From the NCBI GenBank assembly GCA_002320005.1, contig DCJK01000013.1:107049-171048 (forward strand): a DNA stretch of 64,000 bases, written 5' to 3'. This stretch comes from Firmicutes bacterium UBA1702. GTDB taxonomy: Bacteria > Bacillota > Clostridia > Peptostreptococcales > Anaerovoracaceae. The translations under genes were made by a program, and so were the position numbers. Positions 6,579-38,172 of this stretch are shown here, in pieces. Position 1 is the stretch's first letter. Each line of letters starts with the position of its first letter. The notes beneath the pieces are model-generated. The model was not told where the DNA came from. It searched no databases and saw only the letters and a list, made by a program, of their open reading frames with translations.

Positions 6579-6605
6579 ACCGGTCAGAATACTTATGTGG
6601 CAAAT

Positions 6606-6642
6606 AAAAACACAGTCTCGCAGCATGAGAGACTGTGTTTTT
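6606..6642. terminator. bidirectional intrinsic terminator between the DUF2207 gene and ddl
   Basis: aaaaacacagtctc-gcagcat-gagactgtgttttt: perfect stem flanked by an A-run and a T-run. Confidence 0.75.
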
Positions 6643-6650
6643 GATTGCCG

Positions 6651-7715: not shown

Positions 7716-7727
7716 AATAGGACTCCT

Positions 7728-8837
7728 TTATTTGAGGTTTTCAGGGTTAAGGCCTTTAAGCTCGTCTATGACGAAGAGTCCATCCTTGCGGATGAGTACA
7801 TCATCAAAATATATTTCGCCGCCGCCGAATTCCTGTCTCTGTATCATTACAAGATCCCAATGGATGGCCGAATGATTTCCGTTGTATGCATCTTCATAGC
7901 ATTTTCCGGGAGTCAGATGGAAACTGCCGCAGATCTTTTCATCAAAAAGAGTGTCCTTCATCGGTGTAAGGACATAAGGATTTACGCCGATGGCAAATTC
8001 ACCGAAGTATCGTGCACCTTCATCTGTATCCAGAAGGGCGTTGATTCTGTCGGTATCGTTAGCTGTTGCCTTGATAATCTTGCCGTTTTTGATTTCGAAT
8101 TTTATGTTTTCGTAAGTGAAACCCTGCTCCTCAGAGAAGGTGTTGTAGCTGATGGTGCCATTCATTGATTCACGCACCGGTGCAGTGTAGACTTCGCCGT
8201 CAGGAATGTTGCGGAGACCGTCGCACTTGATGGCGGGAATCCCTTTGATGGAGAATTTTAAGTCTGTTCCGGGGCCTTTGATGTGAACCTTGTCAGTTCT
8301 GTTCATCAGATCAACCAGCGGATCCATGGCCTTACTCATTTTTTTGTAATCCAGAGTGCATACGTCAAAATAAAAGTCTTCAAAGGCTTCCTGAGACTTG
8401 TTGGCCAGCTGTGCCATTGAAGGGTTAGGATATCTGAGAACAACCCATTTTGTTTTGTTTACACGGTAGTCGAGAGTAGGGCTGGTAAGCTTGTAGTACA
8501 TGTTCAGCTTGTCTGAAGGAACATCCGAAAGCTCCGAAGTATTGTCGCCGGCTCTGACTGCAATATAAGCGTCCATGCCTTTCATCTGATAAAGCTGATA
8601 GTCGTTGAGGAATTCTATCTGGTCCTCGTCGGCCTCCATAAGGACTTCACGAAGAATCGCGCTGTCTCTGTGGTTTACATAGGGCTTTGCACCAAGCTGA
8701 TAGGCATCTTTTATGAGCTGTCTTATCAGAGGCTTGCAGCATTCTCCTTCATAGTCTATAAGTACTCTTTCTCCCTTTTGAAGATCGCAGGAATAAGAGG
8801 TGAGAAGTCTTGAAAGTTCTTTTACTCTTGGGTCCAT
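7728..8837 (-). CDS. aminopeptidase, peptidase M29 (AmpS/PepS) family
   Basis: MDPRVKELSRLLTSYSCDLQKGERVLIDY..., preceded by a GGAGG RBS. The longer 520-aa ORF in the track is an unsupported N-terminal extension. Confidence 0.8.
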   Translation of the reverse strand: MDPRVKELSRLLTSYSCDLQKGERVLIDYEGECCKPLIRQLIKDAYQLGAKPYVNHRDSAILREVLMEADEDQIEFLNDYQLYQMKGMDAYIAVRAGDNTSELSDVPSDKLNMYYKLTSPTLDYRVNKTKWVVLRYPNPSMAQLANKSQEAFEDFYFDVCTLDYKKMSKAMDPLVDLMNRTDKVHIKGPGTDLKFSIKGIPAIKCDGLRNIPDGEVYTAPVRESMNGTISYNTFSEEQGFTYENIKFEIKNGKIIKATANDTDRINALLDTDEGARYFGEFAIGVNPYVLTPMKDTLFDEKICGSFHLTPGKCYEDAYNGNHSAIHWDLVMIQRQEFGGGEIYFDDVLIRKDGLFVIDELKGLNPENLK

Positions 8838-26542: not shown

Positions 26543-26560
26543 CGGCAACATAAGACAACA

Positions 26561-26592
26561 ACACCCGCAGCCTTGCAGGCTGCGGGTGTTTT
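26561..26592 (+). terminator. intrinsic terminator
   Basis: acacccgcagcc-ttgc-aggctgcgggtgt followed by tttt. Confidence 0.75.
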
Positions 26593-26685
26593 GCAGTTCA
26601 ATGTACCATTCAATTGTGCAAACCGGAAGTTTTAGAGGAAAGCACGGAAACAAGAATCCAAACAAAACAAAAAACTTAGTGCACT

Positions 26686-26775
26686 TTAAAATGCAAGGAA
26701 TACCACCGGTAAATCAGTCTTAAGTTTTTTGCTCATTCTTTTAGATTCATCATACATGTTCTCCATAGTAGCCAT
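26686..26775 (-). pseudogene. 5' stub (29 codons) of a DUF1232/YkvA gene, duplicate of the start of 37573..37965
   Basis: MATMENMYDESKRMSKKLKTDLPVVFLAF then stop. Homology to the full gene ends at 26690. Confidence 0.8.
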
Positions 26776-26950
26776 GGGTTGAGTATATTATAGCAGGCAG
26801 ATAATTTTTTTCAATGCGGCAACCGCCGGAAGGGAAAGTGTGTGAAGCAAATAAAAAGTCCATCGCAATTCCTTTTAAATCACGATGGACTCATGGCGGA
26901 GAGTCAGGGATTCGAACCCTGGGTCCCTTTCGGAACACAGCATTTCGAGT
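26690..26950. repeat. left copy of the 261/262-bp imperfect direct repeat bounding the island (att-like)
   Basis: Aligns base for base with 37880..38141 (offset 11190), with about a dozen differences. Contains a DUF1232 5' stub, its promoter, the tRNA terminator and the 3' half of tRNA-Ser. Confidence 0.9.
26894..26950 (-). pseudogene. truncated tRNA-Ser: 3' half only (anticodon loop to CCA)
   Basis: tggcggagagtcagggattcgaaccctgggtccctttcggaacacagcatttcgagt matches the 3' part of the intact tRNA at 38084..38172. Similarity stops at the anticodon stem-loop. Confidence 0.85.
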
Positions 26951-27208
26951 CTTTTATGCAACTGTGACGGGGATGTCCGTTTTGGGGTCGTTTCTGTAAG
27001 CCCCGTACCCGCCGAAAGCCGCTTGAAATCAGGATTTTTCGCTCGGAAAGCCTTGCGGGACGGGCTTTTTTTAAAGTGGGTTCAAATCGGCATTTTTCCC
27101 GATTTTGGAGAGAAATGCGGGAAGATAGGAGAGAAAAACCGGGAGACGGCCATACACCGCAGGATAGAGCTTCCAACCGACGAAAATCTATTTTTGAGGT
27201 GTTACAAA

Positions 27209-27780
27209 TGGATGTATTCCCCGTTAACTGGGACAGCGTTCCCGAGGTAATGAACAAGGAGCAATTCTTCCGCATCTGCCATATCAGCAAGTCCACGGCG
27301 CTGCACCTGCTCAAAAGCGGCAAGGTGCCCTGCGAGTGGACAGGCAAGAAAACCCGGTGCTATAAAATCAAAAAAGAGGATGTTCGGGCGTACCTTGAGG
27401 AACAAGCCGTTTACCCCGAGCTCTATTCCGCACCGAGGGGATGGTACGGCGGTCACTATGTTGCAAAGCTCTCAAAGGAACTGCCAGAGGATGTACTCCG
27501 GCAAATGCACGACTATTACGCCAAGCTACTCGGCAAATATAAGGATGTCGTTACCGTGCAGGAGGTTGCCGCTTTGACCGGCTACGCCAAAACCACCGTA
27601 AATAATTGGTGCAACCGTGGGGAACTTAAATCCTTCCGCAAAGGACAGCTCTTTTACATACCGAAAATTTTTCTTATAGACTTTTTCTGTTCGCTGACCT
27701 TCCGGTCCATCACCCGCAAAAGCCTGTGGCATATCCAAACGCTCAACGATTTTAGTCGGAAGATGAAGCAGAAGAAGTAA
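27209..27780 (+). CDS. DNA-binding protein with two excisionase/MerR-type HTH (HTH_17-like) domains, mobile-element type
   Basis: GAGGTG RBS. MNKEQFFRICHISKSTALHLLKSGKVP and VTVQEVAALTGYAKTTVNNWCNRGEL. The upstream part of the track ORF has no RBS. Confidence 0.65.
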
Positions 27781-27819
27781 AAGTAACCGCCTCTGCATTT
27801 TCGCAGAGGCGGTTACTTG
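27781..27819. terminator. bidirectional hairpin terminator between convergent genes
   Basis: aagtaaccgcctctgc-attttc-gcagaggcggttactt. Confidence 0.7.
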
Positions 27820-27823
27820 TCAA

Positions 27824-28003
27824 TTAGTCATCATCTTCATCATCCGACCAACCGGATATGATATGTAATTCACCGGAATCCATATCCATTGCCATATTAT
27901 CTCCCATACGCATCAGCAAATCTCCGTCAGAGTCAATTGCCATATTGTCTGAGATTGTATGTGCAAAATCTCCGCCATCATAGTCAAAAAAGTGTTTTCC
28001 CAT
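27824..28003 (-). CDS. small acidic protein (59 aa), paralog of 28788..28970; below the ORF-track cut-off
   Basis: Manual translation gives MGKHFFDYDGGDFAHTISDNMAIDSDGDLLMRMGDNMAMDMDSGELHIISGWSDDEDDD. AGGGGGA RBS. Lies 16 nt after the Zn-ribbon gene. Confidence 0.7.
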   Translation of the reverse strand: MGKHFFDYDGGDFAHTISDNMAIDSDGDLLMRMGDNMAMDMDSGELHIISGWSDDEDDD

Positions 28004-28019
28004 AAATGTTTCCCCCTAC

Positions 28020-28772
28020 TTAATCTAAATACAATTTCATTTTTTCAAATGCATTAACTGTGTCTGTATCATATGTATTAAAATCTTCTGAAAACGTTTG
28101 AAGGCTTCCGGTTGGGCTGATAACCAATTTTGTCATTTGCAAGTAATTGTCATAATAGTCCTTTAATATCGAGTAAACTTCCTCATATTGCGTTGGAGGA
28201 TTCCTCAATTTTTTCAATAAATCAGTAACATTTGATTGATTCAATTCAATTTCATAAATACTGTTCATGAAATTTTCATCAGCAAATAAATTGGATAGAG
28301 CATCATTAAAATCATCTACAAATTTACCGTTCTTCATTGTGTATTTGTCTGTCTCGGCATCTCTTACCTCATAAATTGCATTGTACCATACACTCTTGAT
28401 AAGATTTCCTGCGGTTTCTGCTTTTGCTGCACCGTCAAGCATTTTATAGGTGACGGTTTCTAAATTATCATAATAAATCATTGCGTTGCCTTTACTGATT
28501 GCAAAAGCCGTGAATACTCCGATTGCCAAAATGACAGATAGAATAATTGCGGCAACGACAACACCTTTATGTTTCTTTTTGGGGGCGTTTGTGTTATTGG
28601 GACAACCGCAAGCAGGACAGGAGCTTTCCTCTTTGCCATACAGAGCTCCGCATTCGGCACAGGTCAGAGTGTCGGGTGCGGTCGGGTTCCAGTTTTGGTT
28701 GTTACAGTGCGGGCATAGCGTTGCCTTGTCGCTGATAGGCTGTCCGCAATTTGGGCAGTGTATTAAAGGCAT
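28020..28772 (-). CDS. double zinc-ribbon protein with one TM helix and an extracytoplasmic helical domain of about 160 aa
   Basis: CPNCG..CPHC and CAECG..CPACGC, then KKKHKGVVVAAIILSVILAIGVFTAFAI. AAGGAG RBS. Confidence 0.75.
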   Translation of the reverse strand: MPLIHCPNCGQPISDKATLCPHCNNQNWNPTAPDTLTCAECGALYGKEESSCPACGCPNNTNAPKKKHKGVVVAAIILSVILAIGVFTAFAISKGNAMIYYDNLETVTYKMLDGAAKAETAGNLIKSVWYNAIYEVRDAETDKYTMKNGKFVDDFNDALSNLFADENFMNSIYEIELNQSNVTDLLKKLRNPPTQYEEVYSILKDYYDNYLQMTKLVISPTGSLQTFSEDFNTYDTDTVNAFEKMKLYLD

Positions 28773-28787
28773 ATACCGTCGCTCCTT

Positions 28788-28970
28788 TTAACCGTCATCT
28801 TCTTCGTCGGCAGACCAGGAAGAAATGAAGTGAATATCGCCGGAATCCATGTCCATAGCCATATTATCGCCCATTCGCATCATCATGTTTCCGTCCGAAT
28901 CCATTGCCATATTGTCGGACACGGAATGTACATAGTCTCCGTCGTTGTAATCAAAGAAGTGTTTACCCAT
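28788..28970 (-). CDS. small acidic protein (60 aa) with an internal DNMAxDxDxG repeat
   Basis: MGKHFFDYNDGDYVHSVSDNMAMDSDGNMMMRMGDNMAMDMDSGDIHFISSWSADEEDDG. GAGGAG RBS that overlaps the end of the HNH gene. Confidence 0.7.
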   Translation of the reverse strand: MGKHFFDYNDGDYVHSVSDNMAMDSDGNMMMRMGDNMAMDMDSGDIHFISSWSADEEDDG

Positions 28971-28981
28971 CAGTTTTCTCC

Positions 28982-29293
28982 TCAGTCTTCAATGATTTCA
29001 TATTCCACATGAGAACCTTTTACCCTCCGTGCGTGGAAAGTCGCGCCGTTTGCTTTCCAGTGCGGAAAGTGATTTGCTTTTTCAGCGTTGGTATCACGAT
29101 GGCAAATTATGATATTTTCCGGAACATCGCAACCTCCGCCTGAAAGCGGTCTGATGTGATCAAGCGTCGGGTGATATGCACTGTTCGGATTTCCGCAGGC
29201 TGATTTTTTCATCAGCCGTCCGGAGTAGTCATACGCTTCCTGACTTGCACCGAAAACACGGTTCCACACATCAACGGTTTTATACTTTGACAT
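28982..29293 (-). CDS. HNH endonuclease, minimal (103 aa)
   Basis: LDHIRPLSGGG ... NIIICHRDTNAEK (H-N-N/H beta-beta-alpha pattern). AAGGAGG RBS. Confidence 0.8.
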   Translation of the reverse strand: MSKYKTVDVWNRVFGASQEAYDYSGRLMKKSACGNPNSAYHPTLDHIRPLSGGGCDVPENIIICHRDTNAEKANHFPHWKANGATFHARRVKGSHVEYEIIED

Positions 29294-29351
29294 TTTGAGT
29301 ACCTCCTTTTTTAAGATGTACCCATATTATAATCCAAATAAGAAAAAATAA

Positions 29352-29372
29352 GAGGGTACAGCTGTACCCCCC
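29352..29372 (-). terminator. hairpin plus T-run between the ATPase and HNH genes (possible partial terminator)
   Basis: Minus strand reads gggggggtacagctgtaccctc followed by ttatttttt. A TATAAT follows before the HNH RBS. Confidence 0.45.
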
Positions 29373-29379
29373 CTGTGAA

Positions 29380-31188
29380 TCAAAGCAATTCGGAAATATC
29401 CGAATTTGTTTTGCTTGCTATTGTGATGATGGTTTCGAGCTTCGGACACCTAAATTTCTTGCTGCTTATATTTTTCCTCCACGATTCAATAGTCTCAACG
29501 CTCAGATTTAACTCATCAGCGGCTGTTTCGATTGATTTATAACAATCAATAACTGATCGATAACAACGGTTGGCGGTCGCTTCTTTATCGCCTTTCTGAT
29601 ATTTTTCCAAAATCTCCTGCAGATTAAAAATATCTCCACCGATAACCTGCTTTAAAAGGTCATTACAGTTTTCTTGTGTTACCGCTGTTCCGTGCTGTTC
29701 CATTGTGACAAAATGTACGCTGTTCCAATCATTCGGAACAAGATAGGGGCTATGCGTGGAATAAATGACTTTAATTCCGTTCGTTTGGAGTTCAAGCAGC
29801 TCCCGCATCACTTCTTTTTGAGCAATGGGGTGAAGCATGGCGGCAGGCTCGTCAACAATAAACAGATCGCCCGGACGAAGCGTATTCTTCATAAAGTAGT
29901 AGGTAAAATACCACCGTCTGCCGGCACTTGTGGAATTCAGCGCAACCGTTTCACCGAATTTTTCATGTAAAACTATTGACGGGATTTTTCCTTTTGAATG
30001 CTCAACTGAAATACTGTCATACATATCTTCCTCAAATTTAGGCAGGTTGGAATTGAGATATTCTTCGAATTCGCACAGAGCTTCATCGGTCAGCGAAAAA
30101 TCCTTCTCTGTTTTGATTTGTTTCAGCAGATCTTCCTTATCGGCTTTGTCGTAAACCTTGTTAAGATAGGTCTCAAGAATAATATACGATTTATCGTTGC
30201 GGTAGAATTCCTGACCCCTTTCGTCGCTTTTGAATATGATATCGCTGCTTTCGTTTCGTAAAAATGAGTGTTTGCCGCCGACACACTTTTGCACTTCACG
30301 AACGAATTTAAAAAATGTGCCGTTATTTTCGGGTGTTAATTGTTCGCCGGTTAATGCTTCTTTCAGACGATTTGCACGTTCGTCAATTTCATTGAGTAAT
30401 GCTATGATTCTGTCACAGGACGCTTTTGTTGCCTTGTTGATTTTTGTGATTTCCCGCTTTATCGCCGTTCCGTTTACGGTGATAAACTTTGCTTCAAACG
30501 GAGCCAAATCCGGTTTTATATAGCGGAGTTGAAAAGATAATCTTTCCGTGTCATTTAAGTTGATATAATTATAAACATATCCGAAGGATAAAGAATTATC
30601 CTCGGTATTAAAGCTTTGCGACAGCGAATTTGCAAGCCGTTCAGCCTGTTCTATAATAAATTCAACTTGAAATTTCAATTTGTCAAAATCGGTCGTTGAA
30701 TTGCGGAAATCGGCAATCTGAAAACTGCGGACAGGCACATCGGCTCTTTCGTTATATGCTATTTTGTTAAGCTGTTTTGTATATGTATTGAGAGCTTTCT
30801 TTAACTCATCTGTAAGGTCAAGAATTTCGCAAATTTCAGAATTCAAAAGCGGGACTAAATATTCCGATTCAATTCTGTCGATTTTGCAATTTTCACCAGA
30901 GCAAGCGATAAAGCGGCATTTATTCTCATCAATTTTTTTGCCGGGAAATAGTCGAGCAATGTCATGCTTTGAGAGAGTGATGTGCACTTTGTAGCTAAGC
31001 GGCAGTTTACTGCTCGCCCCGAAATAATTGCTGTTTACTTCTGCTATTGTGTCCAATGCCTCTAAAATATTGGTTTTTCCGCTTCCGTTTTTGCCGATTA
31101 ACACGGTTGGCAGATTGTCATAAAAGTTAATTTCAATCGGTTCTTTTATGGATTTGTATTTTTTAATTTCAATTCTTGTTATTTTCAT
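29380..31188 (-). CDS. ABC/SMC-type (AAA_15/AAA_21-like) ATPase with a long helical insertion and a C-terminal XRE-like HTH
   Basis: Start MKITRIEIKKYKSI. Walker A GKNGSGKT, signature-like TSAGRR, Walker B LFIVDEP, STHSPY. Tail ETAADELNLSVETIESWRK...PKLETIITIASKTNSDISELL. Confidence 0.8.
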   Translation of the reverse strand: MKITRIEIKKYKSIKEPIEINFYDNLPTVLIGKNGSGKTNILEALDTIAEVNSNYFGASSKLPLSYKVHITLSKHDIARLFPGKKIDENKCRFIACSGENCKIDRIESEYLVPLLNSEICEILDLTDELKKALNTYTKQLNKIAYNERADVPVRSFQIADFRNSTTDFDKLKFQVEFIIEQAERLANSLSQSFNTEDNSLSFGYVYNYINLNDTERLSFQLRYIKPDLAPFEAKFITVNGTAIKREITKINKATKASCDRIIALLNEIDERANRLKEALTGEQLTPENNGTFFKFVREVQKCVGGKHSFLRNESSDIIFKSDERGQEFYRNDKSYIILETYLNKVYDKADKEDLLKQIKTEKDFSLTDEALCEFEEYLNSNLPKFEEDMYDSISVEHSKGKIPSIVLHEKFGETVALNSTSAGRRWYFTYYFMKNTLRPGDLFIVDEPAAMLHPIAQKEVMRELLELQTNGIKVIYSTHSPYLVPNDWNSVHFVTMEQHGTAVTQENCNDLLKQVIGGDIFNLQEILEKYQKGDKEATANRCYRSVIDCYKSIETAADELNLSVETIESWRKNISSKKFRCPKLETIITIASKTNSDISELL

Positions 31189-31225
31189 AAGAACCCTCTC
31201 ACAATGGAAAATGTACACCGTATGT

Positions 31226-31254
31226 GTTATATCACAAAATCACACATTTTTCAA
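31226..31254 (-). promoter_or_regulatory. sigma-A type promoter of the ATPase gene
   Basis: Minus strand has TTGAAA, 17-nt spacer, TATAAC. Lies about 35 nt upstream of the ATG. Confidence 0.55.
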
Positions 31255-31390
31255 TCGATCGGTTGTCAGGTAAAAGATGCTCGAAACAGCAGAACAACCA
31301 TAAGAACAATATGTGCGATTTAAAAATTCGCATACTCGCACCTGTTTTTCGATTTTGATAAACTGTAATCGAAAGGCAGGTGCATTATTT

Positions 31391-31600
31391 ATGTCACGGT
31401 TTATAGAAGAATTTTACAACGGAAATATTGATCCGCAGGCACGCAGTACAAAAGAAAATAAGGCGTTGCAAAAGCAAATGGAAGTCCTGATGAATAATAA
31501 GGATTTGCTGACCAACGCCCTGACCGACAAGCCGAAGAAATGGTTTCTCGACTATGTGAACGCTTGGGGAGTTGCCAACGGCGAATCAAATCTCGTGTAA
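31391..31600 (+). pseudogene. small mobile-element protein (DUF6809-like, from memory), 3'-truncated by the IS21 insertion
   Basis: MSRFIEEFYNGNIDPQARS.... The stop codon TAA lies inside the IS terminal inverted repeat. Confidence 0.45.
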
Positions 31601-31648
31601 ATGTCAACATAAAAATGTCAAAAAGTTCCGAAATGAAAATGTAGTTTT

Positions 31649-32413
31649 CTAACGAGATTGATTTTGCTCTCCTGAATCCAGTAAATCGTAATAGTCTTTT
31701 GTCCTGTATGAAGGACCCACCATTTTCAGAACATGAGAATGATTGAGCAGTCGGTCAAGGATTGCATTGGCAAGCATTGAATCTGAGAATACATCGCCCC
31801 ATTTACTGAACGGTTGGTTGGTTGTGATAATTGTTGAATTATGTTCATATCGCTTCGCAATTAACTGGAACAACAGATTTGCCCCAGTCTTGTCTACTGG
31901 AAGATATCCGATTTCATCAATGATTAGAAGCTTGTATTTTGAAAAATGCTTGAGTCTGGATTCTAATCTGTTTTCATCATGAGCCTTTCTAAGAGTCTGT
32001 ATCAAATCATGACAGGTGATGAAATACGTAATGTTCCTTTTCCTTGCTGCCTCAATTCCTATTGCTGTGGCAAGGTGTGTTTTACCCGTTCCCGGAGTTC
32101 CATAAAACAATATATTTTCCTTGTTCTCAATAAATCTAAGTGTTGCAAGATCTTTGATTTCTGTTCTGCTGACTGTATTCCGGAAATGAAAATCAAATTC
32201 GTCAGCAGTTTTGATATACGGAAAATGCGATACGCTCACCTGAATCTGAGCCGCCCTTTGATTTCTAAGTGATATCTCACGCTTTGATATTTCGTATAGA
32301 GCTTCTTGCAAACTGATTCCATCCTTTGTTGCCGTTGTCAGATATTCTGAGAGATATGGTTCAACATCTGTAAAGCCAAGCTCGTCAAGATTATTCACTA
32401 ACTGTGTATACAT
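31649..32413 (-). CDS. istB: IS21-family helper ATPase IstB
   Basis: GTPGTGKTH Walker A, LLIIDEIGY Walker B, 254 aa. Confidence 0.9.
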   Translation of the reverse strand: MYTQLVNNLDELGFTDVEPYLSEYLTTATKDGISLQEALYEISKREISLRNQRAAQIQVSVSHFPYIKTADEFDFHFRNTVSRTEIKDLATLRFIENKENILFYGTPGTGKTHLATAIGIEAARKRNITYFITCHDLIQTLRKAHDENRLESRLKHFSKYKLLIIDEIGYLPVDKTGANLLFQLIAKRYEHNSTIITTNQPFSKWGDVFSDSMLANAILDRLLNHSHVLKMVGPSYRTKDYYDLLDSGEQNQSR

Positions 32414-32474
32414 ATTACAATCCTCCTGTCCATTTATCCATGCTTAGTAGATTTTCTTGTACAAATGCCATAAT

Positions 32475-33656
32475 TTATTCATCAGTTTTGTGCTTCATGG
32501 CATCACTTTTTAGAATGTCGCAAGCTGTACCTACAGTGTAACTGAACATTTTATCACTAATAACGTGACAAACTACCAGTTTACCGCTATAATATATTTC
32601 AAGATTTCCGTCATGAACATTGACGGTCATTCTTTTACCTATGTAACGTGTAGGTACAGAGTATTTTCGTCCTTCATACCGAATCATTGATTCTCTGTTA
32701 ACGAGATAAGTTTTTGAATCTTCTTGGCGGGAGATGTACTTTTCGAGAACAGAAATGTATGGAAGTGGCAGAAAATACTCTTTTTCTTTTTTGAGTTCTT
32801 CTGCTGGAATGAGTCCGGAGCCCTGAGAAACATCCTCATTGATATCATCCATGAAATTCCTACTGATGTTAACAAGGTCATTCCATGTGTCAAATTCCTC
32901 ATTGTATGCCCTTAAACGCTCCACTAACTTTGCCATTGCCTCTACTTTTCCTTTTGTTTGAGGTCTGTATGGCTGACATGCAACAGGCTTGAATCCGATA
33001 TCCTTTGCGTAGTATTCAAACTTCTGATTAAATACGGTTCTGGTAAAAGAACATCGAGACTGGTCAACTACAGTCTTCATGTTATCAAACAGAATTTCTC
33101 GTGGTACACCTCCAAAATGCTTAAATGCAGAGGTCATGCAATCAAATAGTGTTTCCTGTGATCGATCCGAGGTTATTGCAAGATACTTGTATCTGGAATA
33201 ACCCAGAACCATTAGAAAAATGTTTACGACGTAAACTTCACCTTTGCGATTAACAAGTTTCATGTCTTCTTTCCAGTCAACCTGTGCCTGAAGACCTGGA
33301 TTTGTCGCATAACGAATAGTTGCTTTCTTTGTTTCAGTAGCCTTATGCTGCCTCACAAAATCGGCAACAATGCTGTATTTGCCACTGTATCACTTACCTT
33401 GAATGAATTTGTAAACAGACATAGCCGTACACCCAAACTTGTCAACTTTATCAATGATAATCTCTTTGTAATCATCAAGCTTTGAAGTGTAAACTCGTCT
33501 GCTTGTCTTTGGAAGAATTTCGCCTTTGGAAATCTTAATATATCTGTCAATGGTTCGTGGATCACAGTCAAATCGCCGAGCTAGTTCAGTTTTATTGCAC
33601 AAATCTAGATTCTCCTTTCCTAAGAATTCAATTTTATCTTTTATGTCACCTCTCAC
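32475..33656 (-). pseudogene. istA: IS21-family transposase IstA interrupted by an in-frame TGA (33390..33392)
   Basis: The two track ORFs (33390..33656 and 32475..33356) are in the same frame (1182 nt = 394 codons). The read-through sequence ...FIQGK*YSGKYSIVADFVRQHK... is continuous IstA-like sequence. Confidence 0.8.
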
Positions 33657-34026
33657 AACAAATTCCTCCTTCGTTCAGTGACACAATTATATTAAAAAAA
33701 TGCTACCTGAAAATGCTTAAATCCCTACATTTTGATATCGGAACTTTAATGCATTTCCATAGTAACATTTACACAGCACTATGAGGTAGAAAATGAATGT
33801 CTTGCTTCATAGTGCATTTTTTTGTGCAGAAAATTGCCTGAAAAAGACTCTATAACGTTTTCCGCATATAGCAGATCTCTAATTGGTAAAAATGATTGCT
33901 AGGTTGCTTCAAAGACTGTGAAAGTTTTTCTGTAAATTAGCCCTCCATGGTAATTAGATAGCTTTGACACTCGCTTTTCAGCAGGTGCCTTACTTGTTGA
34001 CAATACAAGATATCATTCAAAAGATG

Positions 34027-35838
34027 CTATAATCCTTTGTAATATTTTTCAATTAAAGCAGCCATCAACTTACGACGCTCACGAAGGAAATCATCATAGG
34101 ATGACACATCCATCGTATCAATATCATCCGGAATACAGTTTTCTGAAAGGTTAGATACAAGAAGGGACTCATCCGAAATGTTACCCAATTCGATTTTCTT
34201 GGTTACACACTGTTGTTTTGCTTTGGTGAAATATGTTGCGGGCGCATCATCGCTGATTGCTTTGTTAACTTGAGTATCAAGAAAGATGTAATTTGCGACC
34301 TGATTATATTTTGTCTTATTGGTTACCCCATTGTTCTTGAGGTATGCACGTGGGAAAATGTGATGCACATCGCCGGAAATGGTAACAAGATCGGAAACCT
34401 TGGTGCCATTCATAAGCATTGAGTTGCAGTTAAGGTTGATTTGTGCCGCGATAAAGGTATTAAATGCAGGGCTGTTTACAGATGATGTTTCCAAATTTTG
34501 AGGAAGAGTTACTTTCCAGAAAGAATCAGAGAGAGAAGATGCTTCTACATCTGCAAGGAAGTTCAGGAATCCCTTCTCGGCAATGCTTCTCATATCTCTG
34601 TCCATTACTGTTTCGGGAGAACCTATGTAACGGGATGTAAGTGTGGACATAACGAACCACTTTTGAACATAACGCTTGATCTGTGCATTCGGGATGGTTG
34701 GATCATCAAGCAACATCAAATACAAAGTGTATGCAAAATCAAGCGTCATAGCCGAATTTAACAATTTGTGCGAGATAAATCCGGCGCCTTTTATTGCCAT
34801 AATAAACTGAGCAAAATTGTACTCGTTTATAAAGTTTTGAATACCCTCATCAAGTTTACGATAAGATTCGTCAACAATATCATCACGGTATTCTTTTGTT
34901 TCAAAATCTCTGCCCGAAAGTAAACTTACAAGATCTGAAAGTTTTCCTCTACGGAACTGGTGCATGAAGGAAACACGAAGCATATCGCCATAATCGGGAT
35001 CGTAAATATCATCATAATCCTTTGCGAGCCATTTGATTTTGGAAGCATATTTTGAATTTTGAAACTCTGCGTCATTTGTAATATGAGAAAAAAACTCCGG
35101 CTTAACTGCGAGATGACAGAAATAATCAACTGTCTTTCTCAGCATATTGCCGCCGTGTTCGGTATCGGCTGCCATTTTAGACATGACGAAGTCAGACTGG
35201 CTGAGTGCGGTGCCTTTGGAGTTGATACGAATGAAAATCTCTGTAACTTCATCAATATCAAGCGAATGATCAAGTTCAATCACACCAATTTGACGATTCG
35301 CAATGCCCTTCAGTTCGGTAATGGCTTTATTTACATCATTAGGTTTGACGCCCTCATTGACTGAACAGTATTTCAACGCAAAATCAAACGGATCGAAATT
35401 GCTATCGAAAACAACAGAAATGTCAGGAATCCACTTTTTATCTTTTAAATGGGATGCATCTTGAACCGCAAAACGTTTTGTTTCATCTTCAGCAAGCGGA
35501 TTAAATGCAATCTTAATTCGATCTTTGTTGAAGTCTTCATCAAGCACTTCCTTACCTGAAATTGCCGCCATCAGTGAGGTAATACGTTGTTGACCGTCTA
35601 TAAGAATCTTCTTGCCGTTGGCTTTTCCACCATCTTTAGTCTGCACATCTGGATTTTTCCAAGTAATAATGTACCCGGTGGGATAACCACTATATAATGA
35701 GTCAATTAAATCTCTAACTTGACTTCTTTTCCATACAAAGGGACGTTGTATTTCGGGGATAACAAAATCCTCGGCTTCAATTAAACCAAGTATTGCGCTT
35801 ATGGAGTATTGCATCAAAGTGAACTTTTCACCTGTCAT
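34027..35838 (-). CDS. GmrSD-family type IV (modification-dependent) restriction endonuclease, DUF262 + DUF1524
   Basis: N-terminal IPEIQRPFVW and LIDGQQRITSL (DUF262). C-terminal DVHHIFPRAYL ... NQVANYIFLDTQVNKAISD (His-Me finger, DUF1524). Confidence 0.85.
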   Translation of the reverse strand: MTGEKFTLMQYSISAILGLIEAEDFVIPEIQRPFVWKRSQVRDLIDSLYSGYPTGYIITWKNPDVQTKDGGKANGKKILIDGQQRITSLMAAISGKEVLDEDFNKDRIKIAFNPLAEDETKRFAVQDASHLKDKKWIPDISVVFDSNFDPFDFALKYCSVNEGVKPNDVNKAITELKGIANRQIGVIELDHSLDIDEVTEIFIRINSKGTALSQSDFVMSKMAADTEHGGNMLRKTVDYFCHLAVKPEFFSHITNDAEFQNSKYASKIKWLAKDYDDIYDPDYGDMLRVSFMHQFRRGKLSDLVSLLSGRDFETKEYRDDIVDESYRKLDEGIQNFINEYNFAQFIMAIKGAGFISHKLLNSAMTLDFAYTLYLMLLDDPTIPNAQIKRYVQKWFVMSTLTSRYIGSPETVMDRDMRSIAEKGFLNFLADVEASSLSDSFWKVTLPQNLETSSVNSPAFNTFIAAQINLNCNSMLMNGTKVSDLVTISGDVHHIFPRAYLKNNGVTNKTKYNQVANYIFLDTQVNKAISDDAPATYFTKAKQQCVTKKIELGNISDESLLVSNLSENCIPDDIDTMDVSSYDDFLRERRKLMAALIEKYYKGL

Positions 35839-35843
35839 AATTA

Positions 35844-36365
35844 TTATTCCTCCGTCATAAAAGTTGCATAACCTTCATAATAGTAGCTGTTGCCGATGCC
35901 TTTCACATAGGCCACACGGCTGTCGATTTCATCGGTCAGTGCCGCTTTTAAAAGGCATTTAATTTCTATGCCTTTAATTGTACTTCGCGCCATTGCCGGC
36001 AGATAATCTTCATTATCAATCTTGCTCTGGTCCACCGCTTTGCTGATTTCATTCTTTAAGATGCGGTCGAGCCAAAGGCTGGCCGCGACATTTTATCGAT
36101 GCTCTCAAGCGTCGCTTGCGAATAAATTAAGGAAGCAAATCGGAAATTGCCCTTCGCAATATTGACTGTTCTGAGTTCGCCTGCGAAGTCGTAAATGCCA
36201 TCAAAGAGATATTTATTGAGTGCCTGTAAGACTGAAATTTTGCCGGCAGGGAGGTTGCATAGAATACCTTTTTCAAAAATTCCGCAACCTTTTTCTTGCT
36301 GATGCGCTCTTCTTCACGTGCATGGTCGGCAGAGCTTGTCAGCCCCATTTATTTTCAAGTGTCAT
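35844..36365 (-). pseudogene. decayed Fic (Fido) family gene: at least 3 frame disruptions and the catalytic HxFx(D/E)GNGRxxR region deleted
   Basis: Fic-like segments occur in three frames: MTLENK / GLTSSADHAREEERISKKK / GILCNLPAGKISVLQALNKYLFDGIYDFAGELRTVNIAKGNFRFA..IDKM / NEISKAVDQSKIDNEDYLPAMARSTIKG...YYYEGY. No HPFxxGNG appears in any frame. Confidence 0.7.
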
Positions 36366-36376
36366 TTGCACTTCCG

Positions 36377-36646
36377 TTATTCCTTATCATTCTCCAGAAG
36401 ACCGTATGTCCGGTAGTAGGACAGTATCGTCTGGTATTGCAGTTTGGTTGTAAAAAGCTGGCGATAGGTAACGGTTTTTTCTTTCCCTTCAGCCTTGAGC
36501 GTTGCCAATTTCTCTGTAACCAAGTCATACTGCGCGAGAATATCGGAAAGCATTTTTTCAAAAGCCTTTATGCGTTCTCCATCACGGGCAAGGTCGGCAG
36601 AGTTTGTAAGCCCTAATTTATTTTCAAGTGCCATATTGAACCTCAA
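36377..36646 (-). CDS. hypothetical 89-aa protein; N-terminus duplicates the Fic N-terminus and it contains TLKAEG (S/TxxxE[G/N] Fic-inhibitory-type motif)
   Basis: MALENKLGLTNSADLARDGERIKAFEKM... The first roughly 50 nt are a DNA-level repeat of 36316..36365. Intact ORF immediately upstream of the Fic remnant. Confidence 0.5.
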   Translation of the reverse strand: MRFNMALENKLGLTNSADLARDGERIKAFEKMLSDILAQYDLVTEKLATLKAEGKEKTVTYRQLFTTKLQYQTILSYYRTYGLLENDKE

Positions 36647-36663
36647 AAATCAGATTATAATAT

Positions 36664-37140
36664 TCATGAAATTAAAACGATTGCAACTACAAAAATTAAA
36701 ATACCTACTAAAAATGTCATACAACCGGTAGCCTGTGGGGATGATTTCCTATGATTAGATGCCGTATGAGAATATGTGTATGTAGGTGATTCTTGTATAT
36801 GTGCTTGTTCCGATTTTTGAGTAGGGCGAAGCTTGGTGGCTTTAGAATATAAAGCGAGAGGGTCGGTTTGATTCATTATGCGTGAATAAAAATCGTCAAG
36901 CCACACAGTATCGTACGGTTCACACATATTTTGCTCGGTGCAATCAGGTTCATGTGCTATTTGATTCCTAACCCAACGGTAGTGTTTCAGTTGTTTTAAG
37001 TCATCATCCCAACCTCTTACAAGATAAGAGCCACGGGGAGTATTTATCATTTCATCAATATAAGCGGATATACGCCTATCATCATTTAATATTTCGCCGC
37101 ATAGTTTTTCAAGATGTTTATACGATTCAATAAAACCCAT
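36664..37140 (-). CDS. hypothetical protein with a C-terminal TM anchor
   Basis: AGGAG RBS 8 nt before the ATG (MGFIESYKHLEKLCGE...). C-terminal helix MTFLVGILIFVVAIVLIS. Confidence 0.55.
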   Translation of the reverse strand: MGFIESYKHLEKLCGEILNDDRRISAYIDEMINTPRGSYLVRGWDDDLKQLKHYRWVRNQIAHEPDCTEQNMCEPYDTVWLDDFYSRIMNQTDPLALYSKATKLRPTQKSEQAHIQESPTYTYSHTASNHRKSSPQATGCMTFLVGILIFVVAIVLIS

Positions 37141-37158
37141 ATGGCACAACTCCTAAAC

Positions 37159-37347
37159 TTAATTGTCCGCTGCAACACCGGATTTCATCCAGGCATCAAC
37201 TTCACTGAGTTTGAACTTCCATAGGCGTCCGATTTTCGCAGCAGGCATATTTCTTTTTTCTATCCAAGCGAGTACTGTGTCGCGGCTGACGCCCAGGTAT
37301 TCGTAAGTTTCTTTCATTGAATACCAGCGTTCGATGTTAGAATCCAT
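37159..37347 (-). CDS. excisionase/AlpA-type HTH DNA-binding protein (62 aa)
   Basis: MDSNIERWYSMKETYEYLGVSRDTVLAWIEKRNMPAAKIGRLWKFKLSEVDAWM. GTGAGGA RBS. Confidence 0.7.
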   Translation of the reverse strand: MDSNIERWYSMKETYEYLGVSRDTVLAWIEKRNMPAAKIGRLWKFKLSEVDAWMKSGVAADN

Positions 37348-37572
37348 TAAATTGTCCTCACTTTCGGGTATTTTTTTACAACTTTTGTATAGCACATTTC
37401 AGCGCTTTAATCAAGGATTATTGTGGATTTATAAAGAAAACATAGGAAAATATAATAAAATTTAATAGATAAAAAGGGTTAAAAAAGAAAATCTCCGACA
37501 GCCTTTGACTGCGGAGATAGCGTTTACCGGCAGCAGCCGACATACAGCTGCCCGGTATTGATTATTTGTCAT

Positions 37573-37965
37573 CTAAAACCATATGGCTTTTACTGTAAGC
37601 CATATGATAATCGCCCAGACGGCAGCCACGGGCATAGCATAATACCATTTTTTCGGCTTTCCGTCTGCCCACATACCTTCTGATTTTTCACGACATTCCA
37701 TCCACACATCTTTGGGAATAAGCTTTATTGTCAGAGCCATCAGAGCCGGCAATAAAATCATATCATCAAGATATCCCAGCACCGGAATGAAATCCGGAAT
37801 CAGGTCAACAGACGACAGGGCATAGCATACCGTGACAGCAGCTGTCACCTTTGCCGGGACAGATGCACTGCCGTGCTTCAATGCAAGGAATACCACCGGT
37901 AAATCAGTCTTAAGTTTTTTGCTCATTCTTTTAGATTCATCATACATGTTCTCCATAGTAGCCAT
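37573..37965 (-). CDS. DUF1232 (YkvA family) membrane protein
   Basis: DLIPDFIPVLGYLDD signature. Own promoter (TGCTATAAT 11 nt before the ATG, no SD) and own terminator (about 37478..37512). Confidence 0.8.
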   Translation of the reverse strand: MATMENMYDESKRMSKKLKTDLPVVFLALKHGSASVPAKVTAAVTVCYALSSVDLIPDFIPVLGYLDDMILLPALMALTIKLIPKDVWMECREKSEGMWADGKPKKWYYAMPVAAVWAIIIWLTVKAIWF

Positions 37966-38141
37966 GGGCTGAGTATATTATAGCAGGCAGATAATTTTTT
38001 TCAATGCGGCAACCGCCGGAAGGGAAAGTGCAGGACGCACATAAAAAGTCCACCGCAATTCCTTTTAAATCACGATGGACTCATGGCGGAGAGTTAGGGA
38101 TTCGAACCCTAGGTTCCTTTTGGGAACACAGCATTTCGAGT
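37880..38141. repeat. right copy of the 261/262-bp direct repeat (embedded in the intact DUF1232 gene start, intergenic region and intact tRNA-Ser)
   Basis: See 26690..26950. Confidence 0.9.
37977..38004 (-). promoter_or_regulatory. promoter of the DUF1232 gene (extended -10), near-leaderless
   Basis: Minus strand has TTGAAA, 16-nt spacer, (TGC)TATAAT. The ATG starts 12 nt after the -10. Confidence 0.5.
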
Positions 38142-38172
38142 GCTGCACCTTCGACCTCTCGGACAACTCTCC
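38084..38172 (-). tRNA. tRNA-Ser (anticodon CGA), CCA encoded
   Basis: Reverse complement is GGAGAGTTGTCCGAGAGGTCGAAGGTGCAGCACTCGAAATGCTGTGTTCCCAAAAGGAACCTAGGGTTCGAATCCCTAACTCTCCGCCA. It has a 7-bp acceptor stem, anticodon loop CTCGAAA, a long variable arm and a GTTCGAATC T-loop. Confidence 0.92.

What the first reader, a model, noticed from the sequence alone, without database searches (positions are those of the whole stretch)
26690..38172. 11.2-kb integrase-less island at tRNA-Ser(CGA), bounded by unusually long (261/262 bp) imperfect direct repeats
26690..26950 and 37880..38141 align base for base (offset 11190 bp) with about a dozen differences.

- The right copy is embedded in intact units: the full DUF1232 gene, its promoter, the tRNA terminator and the full tRNA-Ser.
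- The left copy is truncated on both sides. It has a 29-codon DUF1232 stub and only the tRNA 3' half. Similarity ends at the anticodon stem-loop, a classical tyrosine-integrase crossover position.
- Several differences are compensatory. The T-stem reads CAGGG/CCCTG in the left copy and TAGGG/CCCTA in the right copy. The variable arm and the tRNA terminator stem also keep their pairing. The two copies therefore look like two functional alleles rather than a recent duplication.

Three things are unusual. The repeat extends about 190 bp beyond the tRNA 3' end into a neighbouring gene. No integrase or recombinase is present between the repeats, only two Xis-type HTH genes at the two ends (27209..27780 and 37159..37347). 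The interior looks clearly more A+T-rich by eye than the flanks (not computed).

Possible explanations are an element that captured flanking DNA by imprecise excision, a decayed tandem island, or acquisition by homologous recombination.
Basis: partly seen in the sequence, partly recalled or inferred. Interest (0 to 1): 0.7.

Follow-up and report, generated by a model that had tools for sequence, protein, structure and literature searches.

The report
Integrase-less defence island at tRNA-Ser
This is a real, horizontally acquired 11-kb anti-phage island that has lost its own integrase and transfer genes but keeps both attachment sites in a tRNA-Ser gene; this kind of decayed mobile element is already known, and its unusually long flanking repeat is a scar left by an earlier island.

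Summary
Positions 26690-26950 and 37880-38141 are 261/262-bp direct repeats with 12 differences. They flank 10.9 kb of lower-GC DNA (0.40, flanks 0.46) next to tRNA-Ser(CGA).

Seven conspecific metagenome contigs have an empty site with one repeat copy. That copy already contains the 29-codon DUF1232 stub. Other strains carry different defence cargo between the same junctions.

The left-end gene is a 190-aa protein with two excisionase-type HTH_17 domains. It lies about 270 bp from the anticodon-loop core ATTTCGAGT in 86 of 88 loci examined.

Complete relatives run: left-end gene, cargo, TnpV, AAA_25, NikA, relaxase, ParB, tyrosine integrase, tRNA. The window island keeps both end modules but has no mobilisation or integrase genes. 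This fits the published definition of a cis-mobilisable element (CIME).

Integrase-bearing relatives occupy the same site in the same species. In another species one sits in tandem with a 91%-identical island.

The extra 190 bp of repeat occurs only in this species and is best read as a relic, not as part of the att site. Mobilisation by a borrowed integrase is inferred, not shown.

Verdict: a new member of a known kind, of moderate interest.

The parts
26690..26950 (-). Left direct repeat (chromosomal side, attL). It contains the DUF1232 stub (26690..26775, 29 codons), a promoter-like site (26787..26814), a terminator hairpin (26856..26892) and the tRNA-Ser 3' 57 nt (26894..26950).
   Evidence: The same single copy is present in empty sites L001, L003, L004, L006, L008, L009 and L017.
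26942..26950 (.). Left copy of the core ATTTCGAGT (the anticodon loop). This is the inferred crossover site and the island begins at 26951.
   Evidence: The core is at least 90% conserved in 79 unique left arms.
26951..27207 (+). Left arm of the island. It is non-coding, of conserved length, and has conserved blocks (for example 27079..27138).
   Evidence: 86 of 88 loci have the core 259-304 nt before the HTH gene; 96-97% identical in Yeguia hominis, Faecousia intestinalis and other species.
27208..27780 (+). 190-aa protein with two HTH_17 'excisionase family' domains. It is the left-end marker gene of the element family (called HTH2x here).
   Evidence: Pfam HTH_17 7.7e-18 with 2 stretches. 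TIGR01764 'excise'. PHROG excisionase families. About 254 related stretches in species-representative genomes.
27824..28970 (-). Three genes: a 59-aa acidic protein (27824..28003), a 250-aa double-zinc-ribbon membrane protein (28020..28772) and a 60-aa acidic paralog (28788..28970). Function unknown. They often follow the left-end gene in relatives.
28982..31188 (-). Candidate two-gene defence system: a 103-aa HNH nuclease (28982..29293) and a 602-aa AAA_15/AAA_21 ABC-type ATPase (29380..31188).
   Evidence: Pfam. PADLOC gives AriA 6.9e-31 and PtuA 3e-15 for the ATPase and no model for the HNH. 95% identical block in another species, L031.
31313..31600 (+). DUF6809 backbone gene. Its 3' end is cut by the IS insertion. 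In relatives it is followed by TnpV, which is missing here.
   Evidence: similarity to L031 stops at 31595.
31595..33774 (-). IS21-family insertion sequence with 50-nt terminal inverted repeats. IstB is 31649..32413. IstA is 32475..33656, interrupted by an in-frame stop at 33390..33392.
   Evidence: (rve and IstB_IS21 Pfam hits on L101).
34027..35838 (-). 603-aa GmrSD-like (DUF262) type IV restriction enzyme candidate.
   Evidence: Pfam GmrSD_N 9.2e-36. PADLOC HEC-05 1.8e-32. Its 90%-identity cluster has 518 members, and one member alone was seen on 816 contigs.
35844..36646 (-). Small ORFs: a C-terminal fragment of a PDC-S04 candidate defence protein (35844..36035), a 73-aa ORF (36127..36348) and an 85/89-aa ORF (36377..36646). 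They are shared with relatives L056, L062, L064 and L078.
36664..37347 (-). Right-end backbone module: DUF6548 (36664..37140) and a 62-aa HTH_17 excisionase-family protein (37159..37347). The conserved promoter region is 37409..37459.
   Evidence: Pfam. TIGR01764 1.2e-15. In complete elements the same gene pair lies inside, next to the mobilisation and integrase module.
37573..37965 (-). Full-length DUF1232 (YkvA family) gene. It sits where complete relatives carry the mobilisation genes and the integrase.
   Evidence: It is present at the right end of all conspecific islands seen (L002, L007, L010) and absent from empty sites.
37880..38141 (-). Right direct repeat (island side, attR). It is a chimera: the DUF1232 start, promoter and terminator are of the conspecific island type, while the tRNA 3' half is the allele carried by integrase-bearing elements.
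38084..38172 (-). Functional tRNA-Ser(CGA). The core ATTTCGAGT is at 38133..38141. The 5' 31 nt (38142..38172) are chromosomal.

Best explanation
**What it is**
- The segment 26951..38141 is a non-autonomous integrative island (CIME type).
- It derives from a widespread family of integrative mobilisable elements (IMEs) of gut Clostridia (Oscillospirales-like).
- These elements integrate by tyrosine recombination in the anticodon loop of tRNA-Ser(CGA), at the core ATTTCGAGT, and supply a replacement tRNA 3' half.

**Layout of a complete family member**
- attL, a ~270-bp left arm, the 190-aa double-excisionase-domain gene, DUF6809, TnpV.
- Variable anti-phage cargo.
- DUF6548 and a 62-aa Xis-like gene.
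- AAA_25, NikA, relaxase, ParB, tyrosine integrase, then the tRNA 3' half (attR).

**What the window island keeps and lacks**
- It keeps both att sites, the left arm, both excisionase-family genes and the defence cargo (a GmrSD-like enzyme and an ATPase+HNH pair).
- It lacks the whole mobilisation and integrase block. A DUF1232 gene sits in that position.
- It has also taken an IS21 insertion.

**Why the repeat is 261 bp long**
- The att site proper is the tRNA 3' half plus the core.
- In this species the unoccupied site already carries a truncated copy (29 codons, promoter and terminator) of the same right-end segment.
- This is most simply a scar of an earlier DUF1232-ended island that was deleted.
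- Any island with that right end therefore ends up flanked by 261 bp of homology.

**How it moves (inferred, not shown)**
- Integration, excision and replacement are catalysed by an integrase borrowed from an integrase-bearing relative. The relative acts either in trans or after tandem accretion at one of the island's att sites (cis-mobilisation).
- RecA-dependent recombination and gene conversion across the 261-bp repeats contribute as well.
For: **Shown**
1. Empty sites exist in seven conspecific contigs. They equal window 26543..26950 joined to 38142.. and already contain the stub.
2. At least five different islands sit at exactly the same junctions in conspecific strains.
   - Their left-end proteins are only 38-92% identical and their defence cargo differs.
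   - Their right ends are 98-99% identical.
3. The same junction (tRNA-Ser 3' half, core, ~270-bp arm, HTH gene) occurs in many other species. The core is found 259-304 nt upstream of the gene in 86 of 88 loci.
   - The window's left arm is 96-97% identical in Yeguia hominis and Faecousia intestinalis.
   - Window 27011..31595 is 95% identical in another species (L031). This argues for transfer between species into the same site.
4. The complete architecture is seen on single contigs.
   - L122 runs: host tRNA half, core, HTH gene, cargo, TnpV, AAA_25, NikA, relaxase, ParB.
   - L103-L105 and L108-L111 run: cargo, DUF6548, 62-aa HTH_17 (L103-L105 only; L108-L111 have a 137-aa gene there), mobilisation genes, integrase.
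   - L005 and L120 are the two ends of one 144,690-bp contig of the same species. An HTH gene lies at the left junction and relaxase, ParB and integrase lie next to the tRNA.
5. Tandem accretion is seen directly.
   - An integrase 97% identical to that of L005 lies immediately left of an island whose DNA is 91% identical to the window's (L021).
   - The order integrase, att, HTH gene recurs in L028, L033, L041, L042, L046, L054, L080, L108, L110 and L119.
   - Two integrase-less islands lie in tandem in L064.
6. The window's functional tRNA 3' half is 100% identical to the allele carried by the integrase-bearing elements L005, L021 and L033. It differs from every other conspecific functional copy, while the adjacent terminator and promoter are of the conspecific island type. 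This is a recombination footprint.
7. The 190-bp extension of the repeat matches only conspecific loci. In other species only the 58-nt tRNA half is shared.
8. No integrase, relaxase or other transfer gene was found in the island, and no integrase in the 64 kb.

**From the literature**
- Tandems, remnants and defence cargo are reported as common in Faecalibacterium (PMC12084326).
Against: - No circular form or attP junction of this island was found. One exact-pattern scan of JGI metagenomes was negative, but that is a weak test.
- The rest of the host genome is unknown, so no helper integrase is shown to be present in this strain.
- SNPs in the 261-bp copies are mosaic between left, right and empty-site copies. 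For example, the empty site L017 carries the same allele as the right copy of L007. Homologous recombination therefore clearly acts here and could by itself account for gain and loss within the species.
- The origin of DUF1232 (island cargo or captured host gene) is unresolved.
- The integrase-less right end is conserved in distant species (L064, and probably L056 and L078). This could mean an evolved lifestyle rather than simple decay.
Confidence: 0.7

Rival explanations
1. The locus is a passive recombination hot spot. The island is an immobile remnant, and variants are exchanged between conspecific strains only by RecA-dependent homologous recombination. The substrates would be the core flanks, the 261-bp repeats and the conserved end modules. 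No site-specific recombination occurs any longer.
For: - SNP blocks are mosaic between left, right and empty copies.
- Six strains with different islands share an identical left copy and left flank.
- Right ends are 98-99% identical among islands whose left ends are highly diverged.
- No attP junction was found.
Against: - Near-identical island segments sit at the same tRNA-Ser core in different species and genera whose flanks are unrelated. Flank homology cannot explain that.
- Sequence divergence between islands begins exactly at the core.
- Tandem arrays are separated by cores, including arrays with live integrases.
Confidence: 0.2
2. The long repeat arose by capture. DUF1232, its promoter and the tRNA terminator were native host DNA downstream of tRNA-Ser. 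An imprecise excision attached them to the island's right end in place of the integrase module. The host copy was later truncated to the stub.
For: - DUF1232 (YkvA family) is a common chromosomal gene in related Clostridia, found in varied contexts. These include one directly after the tmRNA gene (L112) and one about 2 kb from a junction of this element family (L113, L114).
- Its GC (0.445) is closer to the flanks than to the cargo.
- No DUF1232 was seen at island right ends in other species.
Against: - It needs an extra illegitimate excision step as well as a truncation.
- No strain, empty or occupied, retains a full-length native copy on the left.
- The nearest DUF1232 homolog outside this island lineage is only 78% identical.
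Confidence: 0.15
3. The island is autonomous. One of its conserved proteins of unknown mechanism (the double-HTH_17 protein, DUF6809 or DUF6548) is a new kind of site-specific recombinase.
For: - Both end modules are conserved across hundreds of loci and are intact in integrase-less islands of distant species.
- The double-HTH protein has invariant Cys, His, Arg, Lys and Tyr positions.
Against: - All detectable domains are DNA-binding excisionase-type HTH domains.
- Complete relatives carry a canonical tyrosine integrase next to the same att site.
- There is no catalytic-domain signal.
Confidence: 0.03
4. The repeat is an assembly artefact, such as a duplicated contig end or a collapsed repeat.
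For: None found.
Against: - The two copies differ at 12 positions.
- Both junctions are reproduced in independent samples.
- A 278-kb contig spans another island with both copies.
Confidence: 0.01

Closest known systems
CIMEs (cis-mobilisable elements), first described for ICESt1/ICESt3-related islands of Streptococcus thermophilus (Pavlovic et al. 2004 and Bellanger et al. 2011, as cited in PMC5704250)
   Same: - Flanked by attL and attR of an ICE/IME family.
- No integrase and no transfer genes.
- Backbone genes shared with complete elements.
- Found in tandem with integrase-bearing relatives at the same site.
- Carries adaptive cargo.
   Different: - The target is a tRNA-Ser anticodon loop in gut Clostridia, not the fda locus.
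- It keeps two excisionase-family genes.
- Mobilisation has not been tested.
- The integrase-less form recurs in distant species.
Tandem and remnant composites of ICEs and IMEs in Faecalibacterium (PMC12084326)
   Same: - The host group is related (the paper covers Faecalibacterium and refers to other Oscillospiraceae).
- Tandems of up to four elements that include remnants.
- Many defence systems as cargo.
- Tyrosine recombinases.
   Different: I did not find this tRNA-Ser(CGA) family or its marker genes named in the passages of that paper that I read. No direct sequence comparison was made.
tRNA-targeting tyrosine-integrase islands in general (P4-like elements, pathogenicity islands)
   Same: - The identity block runs from the anticodon loop to the tRNA 3' end.
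- The element supplies the replacement 3' half.
- The displaced half lies at the far end.
   Different: - There is no integrase next to the tRNA.
- The repeat extends 190 bp beyond the tRNA because of a resident scar.
- Some relatives carry a whole spare tRNA-Ser gene.
IMEX elements (integrase-less elements that use host XerCD at dif)
   Same: Integrase-less, and dependent on a recombinase encoded elsewhere.
   Different: The site is a tRNA anticodon loop, not dif. The candidate helper is an element-encoded integrase, not the host Xer recombinase.
Core-genome defence hot spots and defence islands (for example in E. coli, PMC10121019)
   Same: One chromosomal site is occupied in different strains by different sets of defence genes or left empty.
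   Different: Here the occupants share a mobile-element backbone and precise att junctions.

Membership tests
CIME (cis-mobilisable element) | Flanked by attL and attR sites of an ICE/IME family | tested here: met
   Both repeat copies end at the core ATTTCGAGT preceded by the tRNA-Ser 3' half. The same junctions flank integrase-bearing relatives.
CIME (cis-mobilisable element) | Has lost its integration genes (no integrase) | tested here: met
   Pfam on the 10 ORFs of 78 aa or more outside the IS21 element, and tblastn with three family integrases over the 64 kb (best E 0.04). Two excisionase-family genes remain.
CIME (cis-mobilisable element) | Has lost its transfer genes (relaxase, coupling and T4SS proteins) | tested here: met
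   No Relaxase, NikA, AAA_25 or ParB_N domains among the island proteins. These are present in complete relatives.
CIME (cis-mobilisable element) | Related by descent to a complete ICE/IME (shared backbone) | tested here: met
   The left arm, double-HTH gene and DUF6809 are shared with L122, L120 and L108. DUF6548 and the 62-aa HTH_17 gene are shared with L103-L107, and DUF6548 also with L108-L111.
CIME (cis-mobilisable element) | Can be excised or transferred after accretion with an ICE/IME | not testable with these tools
   Only indirect evidence: tandem arrays with live integrases (L021 and others), and one negative attP search.
IME (integrative mobilisable element) | Encodes its own integrase | tested here: not met
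IME (integrative mobilisable element) | Encodes a relaxase and/or carries an oriT | tested here: not met
   No relaxase. The presence of an oriT was not examined.
Prophage or phage satellite (PICI-like) | Integrase plus phage-related replication, packaging or interference genes | tested here: not met
   The only PHROG matches with an assigned function are to excisionase and HTH families; the other matches are to families of unknown function. The 'phage' database matches are unverified scaffolds of the same element type, and none is circular.
IMEX (Xer-dependent element) | Flanked by dif-like XerCD sites | tested here: not met
   The junctions lie in the tRNA-Ser anticodon loop. No dif motif search was run.
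Septu (PtuA ATPase + PtuB HNH) | Both proteins match the PtuA and PtuB models | tested here: inconclusive
   The ATPase matches AriA (6.9e-31) better than PtuA (3e-15). The HNH protein matches no PADLOC model.
GmrSD type IV restriction enzymes | N-terminal DUF262 domain and C-terminal DUF1524 nuclease domain | tested here: inconclusive
   GmrSD_N 9.2e-36. No Pfam hit to GmrSD_C. PADLOC HEC-05 1.8e-32.

The most novel reading that the evidence does not exclude
The integrase-less form may not be a random wreck. It could be a stable, evolved hitch-hiker lineage: a 'satellite' of IMEs.
- It keeps a conserved left arm and two excisionase-family proteins, one at each end.
- It uses these to capture the integrase of related IMEs that land at the same tRNA-Ser site, and it spreads defence cargo across species that way.
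- The same integrase-less right end (DUF6548, Xis-like gene, then att) in a rabbit-gut genome (L064) is compatible with this reading. So is the strong conservation of the double-HTH gene in about 250 loci.
Probability: 0.2. Interest if true: 0.55.

Novelty: new member of a known kind. Interest (0 to 1): 0.35.

Why it matters
- It gives a worked example, with empty sites, alternative occupants, complete relatives and tandem arrays, of how anti-phage genes are swapped at one tRNA site in uncultured gut Clostridia.
- It defines usable markers for this element family: the core ATTTCGAGT, a ~270-bp arm and a 190-aa double-excisionase-domain gene. With them the elements can be delineated in metagenomes.
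- It shows that a long att-like repeat can be a historical scar rather than a functional requirement.
- It does not reveal a new mechanism.

Tried and rejected
- **attP or tandem junction search.** I searched JGI metagenome contigs for DUF1232 sequence beyond the stub, then 250-266 nt, then the core and the window-type left arm. There were no hits. The test is weak because it needs an exact match and covers one collection.
- **Integrase in the window.** tblastn with three family integrases found nothing.
- **Plasmid collection.** No homolog of the left-end protein.
- **Phage collection.** Five 'Bacteriophage sp.' scaffolds matched. The three I examined are unannotated, non-circular pieces of the same kind of chromosomal element, so they give no phage link.
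- **Origin of DUF1232.** Homolog contexts are heterogeneous, so the choice between cargo and captured host gene stays open.
- **Bridging the gap in the L005/L120 contig.** The exact protein was not a cluster representative. A 94%-identical relative (L122) gave the architecture instead.
- **'The left tRNA half is decaying'.** Rejected, because the hybrid tRNA still folds with a G.U pair.

Full report
**1.

Positions 26690..26950 and 37880..38141 align over 261/262 nt with 11 substitutions and one indel. Similarity stops sharply at both ends. The only tRNA in the window is tRNA-Ser(cga) at 38084..38172 on the minus strand. The right copy covers its 3' 58 nt and the left copy carries the matching 57 nt. 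Both copies end at ATTTCGAGT, the anticodon loop.

Each copy also holds a terminator hairpin directly after the tRNA, a near-consensus promoter (TTGAAA-16-TATAAT), and the first 29 codons of a DUF1232 gene. That gene is complete only on the right, at 37573..37965.

The interior has GC 0.402 and the flanks 0.455 and 0.463. No other 10.9-kb window of the sequence falls below 0.442.

There are two small corrections. The left HTH gene starts at 27208. The interior does hold a transposase, in an IS21-family element at 31595..33774. This element has 50-nt inverted repeats, and its IstA carries an in-frame stop.

**2. Gene content**

Reading left to right:
- A 190-aa protein with two HTH_17 'excisionase family' domains.
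- Two small acidic paralogs around a zinc-ribbon membrane protein.
- An HNH nuclease and an AAA_15 ABC-type ATPase. The ATPase matches AriA and PtuA models. The HNH matches no PADLOC model.
- DUF6809, cut by the IS21 element.
- A GmrSD-like DUF262 enzyme.
- A fragment of a PDC-S04 protein and two small ORFs.
- DUF6548.
- A 62-aa excisionase-family HTH_17 protein.
- DUF1232.

No integrase, relaxase or other transfer gene is present in the island. tblastn with three integrases of the family finds nothing in the whole 64 kb.

**3. Empty sites and alternative occupants**

Exact-protein look-ups with the two flanking genes (bPH_7 on the left, ArsC on the right) returned many conspecific metagenome contigs.

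Seven of them have the two genes 680 bp apart: L001, L003, L004, L006, L008, L009 and L017. That interval equals window 26543..26950 joined directly to 38142... The 11.2 kb is therefore an insertion.

The unoccupied site already contains one copy of the whole 261-bp segment, including the DUF1232 stub.

Other strains carry different islands between the same two junctions. Their cargo includes SIR2, a reverse transcriptase, type I R-M systems, RnlAB, AbiTii and another GmrSD. Their left-end proteins are only 38-92% identical to the window's. Their right ends (DUF6548, HTH_17, DUF1232) are 98-99% identical.

A 278-kb contig spans one such 17-kb island completely (L011 and L002), again with no integrase.

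One strain (L005) carries a different occupant next to the tRNA: AAA_25, NikA, relaxase, ParB and a 404-aa tyrosine integrase.

**4. A large element family with the same att site**

Searching one genome per species with an alignment of the 190-aa protein gave 254 related stretches. They come from Ruminococcaceae, Oscillospiraceae, Acutalibacteraceae, Christensenellales-like genomes and others.

In 86 of the 88 loci with this gene that I examined, the motif TTTCGAG lies 259-304 nt upstream of the gene's start. Most of these loci come from that search and the rest are the conspecific contigs. The intervening arm has conserved blocks. In many loci a tRNA-Ser 3' half sits directly before the core.

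The window's own left arm is 96-97% identical in Yeguia hominis, Faecousia intestinalis and other species. Window 27011..31595 is 95% identical in another species (L031), where TnpV follows DUF6809. Because the chromosomal flanks of those loci are unrelated, this points to site-specific insertion, not flank-guided homologous exchange.

**5. Complete relatives**

Three sets of loci give the full architecture.
- L122 shows, on one contig with no internal core: host tRNA-Ser half, core, arm, the double-HTH gene, methylases and Abi_C cargo, TnpV, a 297-aa protein, AAA_25, NikA, relaxase and ParB.
- Contexts of DUF6548 homologs (1122 clusters) show: cargo, DUF6548, the 62-aa HTH_17 gene (in L103-L107), then an optional UvrD or DUF6076. 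The mobilisation block follows: a 77-aa HTH_17 gene, Cys_rich_VLP, AAA_25, two NikA genes, ParB_N and a 403-414-aa tyrosine integrase (seen in L103-L105 and L108-L111).
- A second metagenome scan recovered the left junction (L120) of the very contig that holds L005. It reads: bPH_7, stub, left copy, core, a double-HTH gene of a diverged type, cargo, TnpV. The occupied region in that strain is at least 21 kb and ends with relaxase, ParB and integrase.

The window island therefore has the family's two ends but lacks the whole mobilisation and integrase block. DUF1232 sits in that place.

**6. Tandem accretion is common at this site**

An integrase 97% identical to that of L005 lies immediately left of an island whose DNA is 91% identical to the window's (L021). 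The junction between them is at the core.

The order integrase, att, double-HTH gene recurs in L028, L033, L041, L042, L046, L054, L080, L108, L110 and L119. In four of these loci (L028, L041, L054, L080) a small HTH_17 gene sits just upstream of the integrase.

L042 holds a minimal unit (double-HTH gene, integrase, tRNA) between two other elements. L064, on a 445-kb contig, has two integrase-less islands in tandem.

**7. What the repeat differences mean**

Five of the 12 differences lie in the tRNA half. The window's right-hand half (T-stem TAGGG/CCCTA, variable arm TTTTGGG) is 100% identical to the allele carried by the integrase-bearing elements L005, L021 and L033. It differs from every other conspecific functional tRNA. 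The terminator and promoter next to it are of the conspecific island type.

The right copy is therefore a chimera. It is best explained by past recombination with an integrase-bearing neighbour.

The left half, joined to the chromosomal 5' half, still folds as tRNA-Ser(cga) with one U.G pair. Precise excision would therefore leave a plausible tRNA.

Across strains, SNP blocks in the 261 bp are shuffled among left, right and empty copies. Homologous recombination or gene conversion acts on these repeats as well.

**8. Why the repeat is so long**

Outside this species only the 58-nt tRNA half is shared. The additional 190 bp (terminator, promoter and stub) match conspecific loci only. Every strain of the species has the stub with the same outer boundary, whether the site is empty or occupied.

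The simplest history has three steps.
- An island ending in DUF1232, promoter, terminator and tRNA half integrated at the site.
- A deletion running from the host flank into codon 29 of DUF1232 removed it. This left a working tRNA and a scar.
- Later islands with the same right end integrated at the core. This automatically creates 261-bp repeats.

Capture of a native DUF1232 gene by imprecise excision is the alternative. DUF1232 (YkvA family) genes are ordinary chromosomal genes in relatives and occur in varied contexts. However, capture needs extra steps, and no strain retains a native full-length copy.

**9. Mechanism and classification**

The structure matches the published definition of a CIME. 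[quoted passage not shown] It arises by decay of an ICE or IME and moves after accretion with an incoming element (PMC5704250, section 2.3). Tandems, remnants and abundant defence cargo are documented for Faecalibacterium (PMC12084326).

- Shown here: att sites, loss of the integrase and transfer genes, shared backbone, polymorphic occupancy, cross-species spread, and tandem arrays with live integrases at the same site and in the same species.
- Inferred: that such an integrase actually moves this island, and that the two excisionase-family proteins act as directionality or architectural factors.

The search for an attP junction was negative but weak.

**10. Verdict**

This is a real feature that was correctly read by the first stage. 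It is an integrase-less, att-flanked defence island of a large but so far unnamed IME family. Its long repeat is a historical by-product.

It is a new member of a known kind. The most novel reading still open is that the integrase-less form is an evolved hitch-hiker lineage, not debris.

Noticed in passing
L005:9580-9760; also L021:9584-9732, L042:12186-12357, L028:9484-9730: Between the element-borne full tRNA-Ser and the next core lies a roughly 180-bp unit. It consists of a copy of the tRNA 5' half and a conserved ~140-bp arm containing TTTTGGAAAGAAATGACGGAAAGA. The unit is flanked by two cores. It is absent from L033, whose integrase is 96% identical to that of L005. It looks like a miniature att-flanked remnant, or like part of an attP that carries a spare tRNA.
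   Followed up: partly
L064:9041-9690: A 196-bp unit is repeated 3.3 times in tandem at 98% identity. Each unit starts with the 3'-terminal 22 nt of tRNA-Ser. The array lies between the Xis-like gene of one integrase-less island and the att site of the next.
   Followed up: partly
L022:916-3082 and 5055-8213: A different arrangement: an HTH_17 gene, a 398-aa integrase, and a 200-aa distant homolog of the double-HTH protein only 52 bp downstream. A group II intron RT follows, and then the same zinc-ribbon, HNH and ATPase cargo as the window (83% identical). This all lies next to SfsA and a full tRNA-Ser.
   Followed up: partly
window:39048-39596: The GNAT acetyltransferase gene right of the island is split into 109-aa and 63-aa ORFs in the window. 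L003 and L005 have the same 109-aa ORF. It is an intact 178-aa gene in L001, L002, L004 and L006. This looks like a frameshift polymorphism.
   Followed up: no
window:27824-28003 and 28788-28970: Two 59/60-aa highly acidic paralogs (77% nucleotide identity) bracket the zinc-ribbon membrane protein gene. The trio recurs right after the left-end gene in many relatives. Its function is unknown.
   Followed up: no
window:33390-33392: IstA of the IS21-family element is interrupted by a single in-frame stop, giving 88-aa and 293-aa ORFs. An independent assembly (L101) shows the same 88-aa and 293-aa ORFs, and L102 at least the 88-aa one.
   Followed up: partly
window:34027-35838: The GmrSD-like protein belongs to a 90%-identity cluster of 518 sequences. 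One member was seen on 816 contigs and is named from Eubacterium and Anaerotruncus MAGs. The gene is therefore very widely spread in gut Clostridia.
   Followed up: no
L120:12502-13395; L122:10001-10894: A conserved 297-aa protein lies between TnpV and AAA_25 in complete elements. It has 535 relatives at E<1e-30, and a few of them carry a sigma-70 region 4 (PF08281) hit. It may be a backbone regulator of the family and is absent from the window island.
   Followed up: no
window:26787-26814: The intact strong promoter in the left (scar) copy points into the 29-codon stub and on towards the 3' end of the convergent bPH_7 gene. It could produce antisense or read-through transcripts.
   Followed up: no
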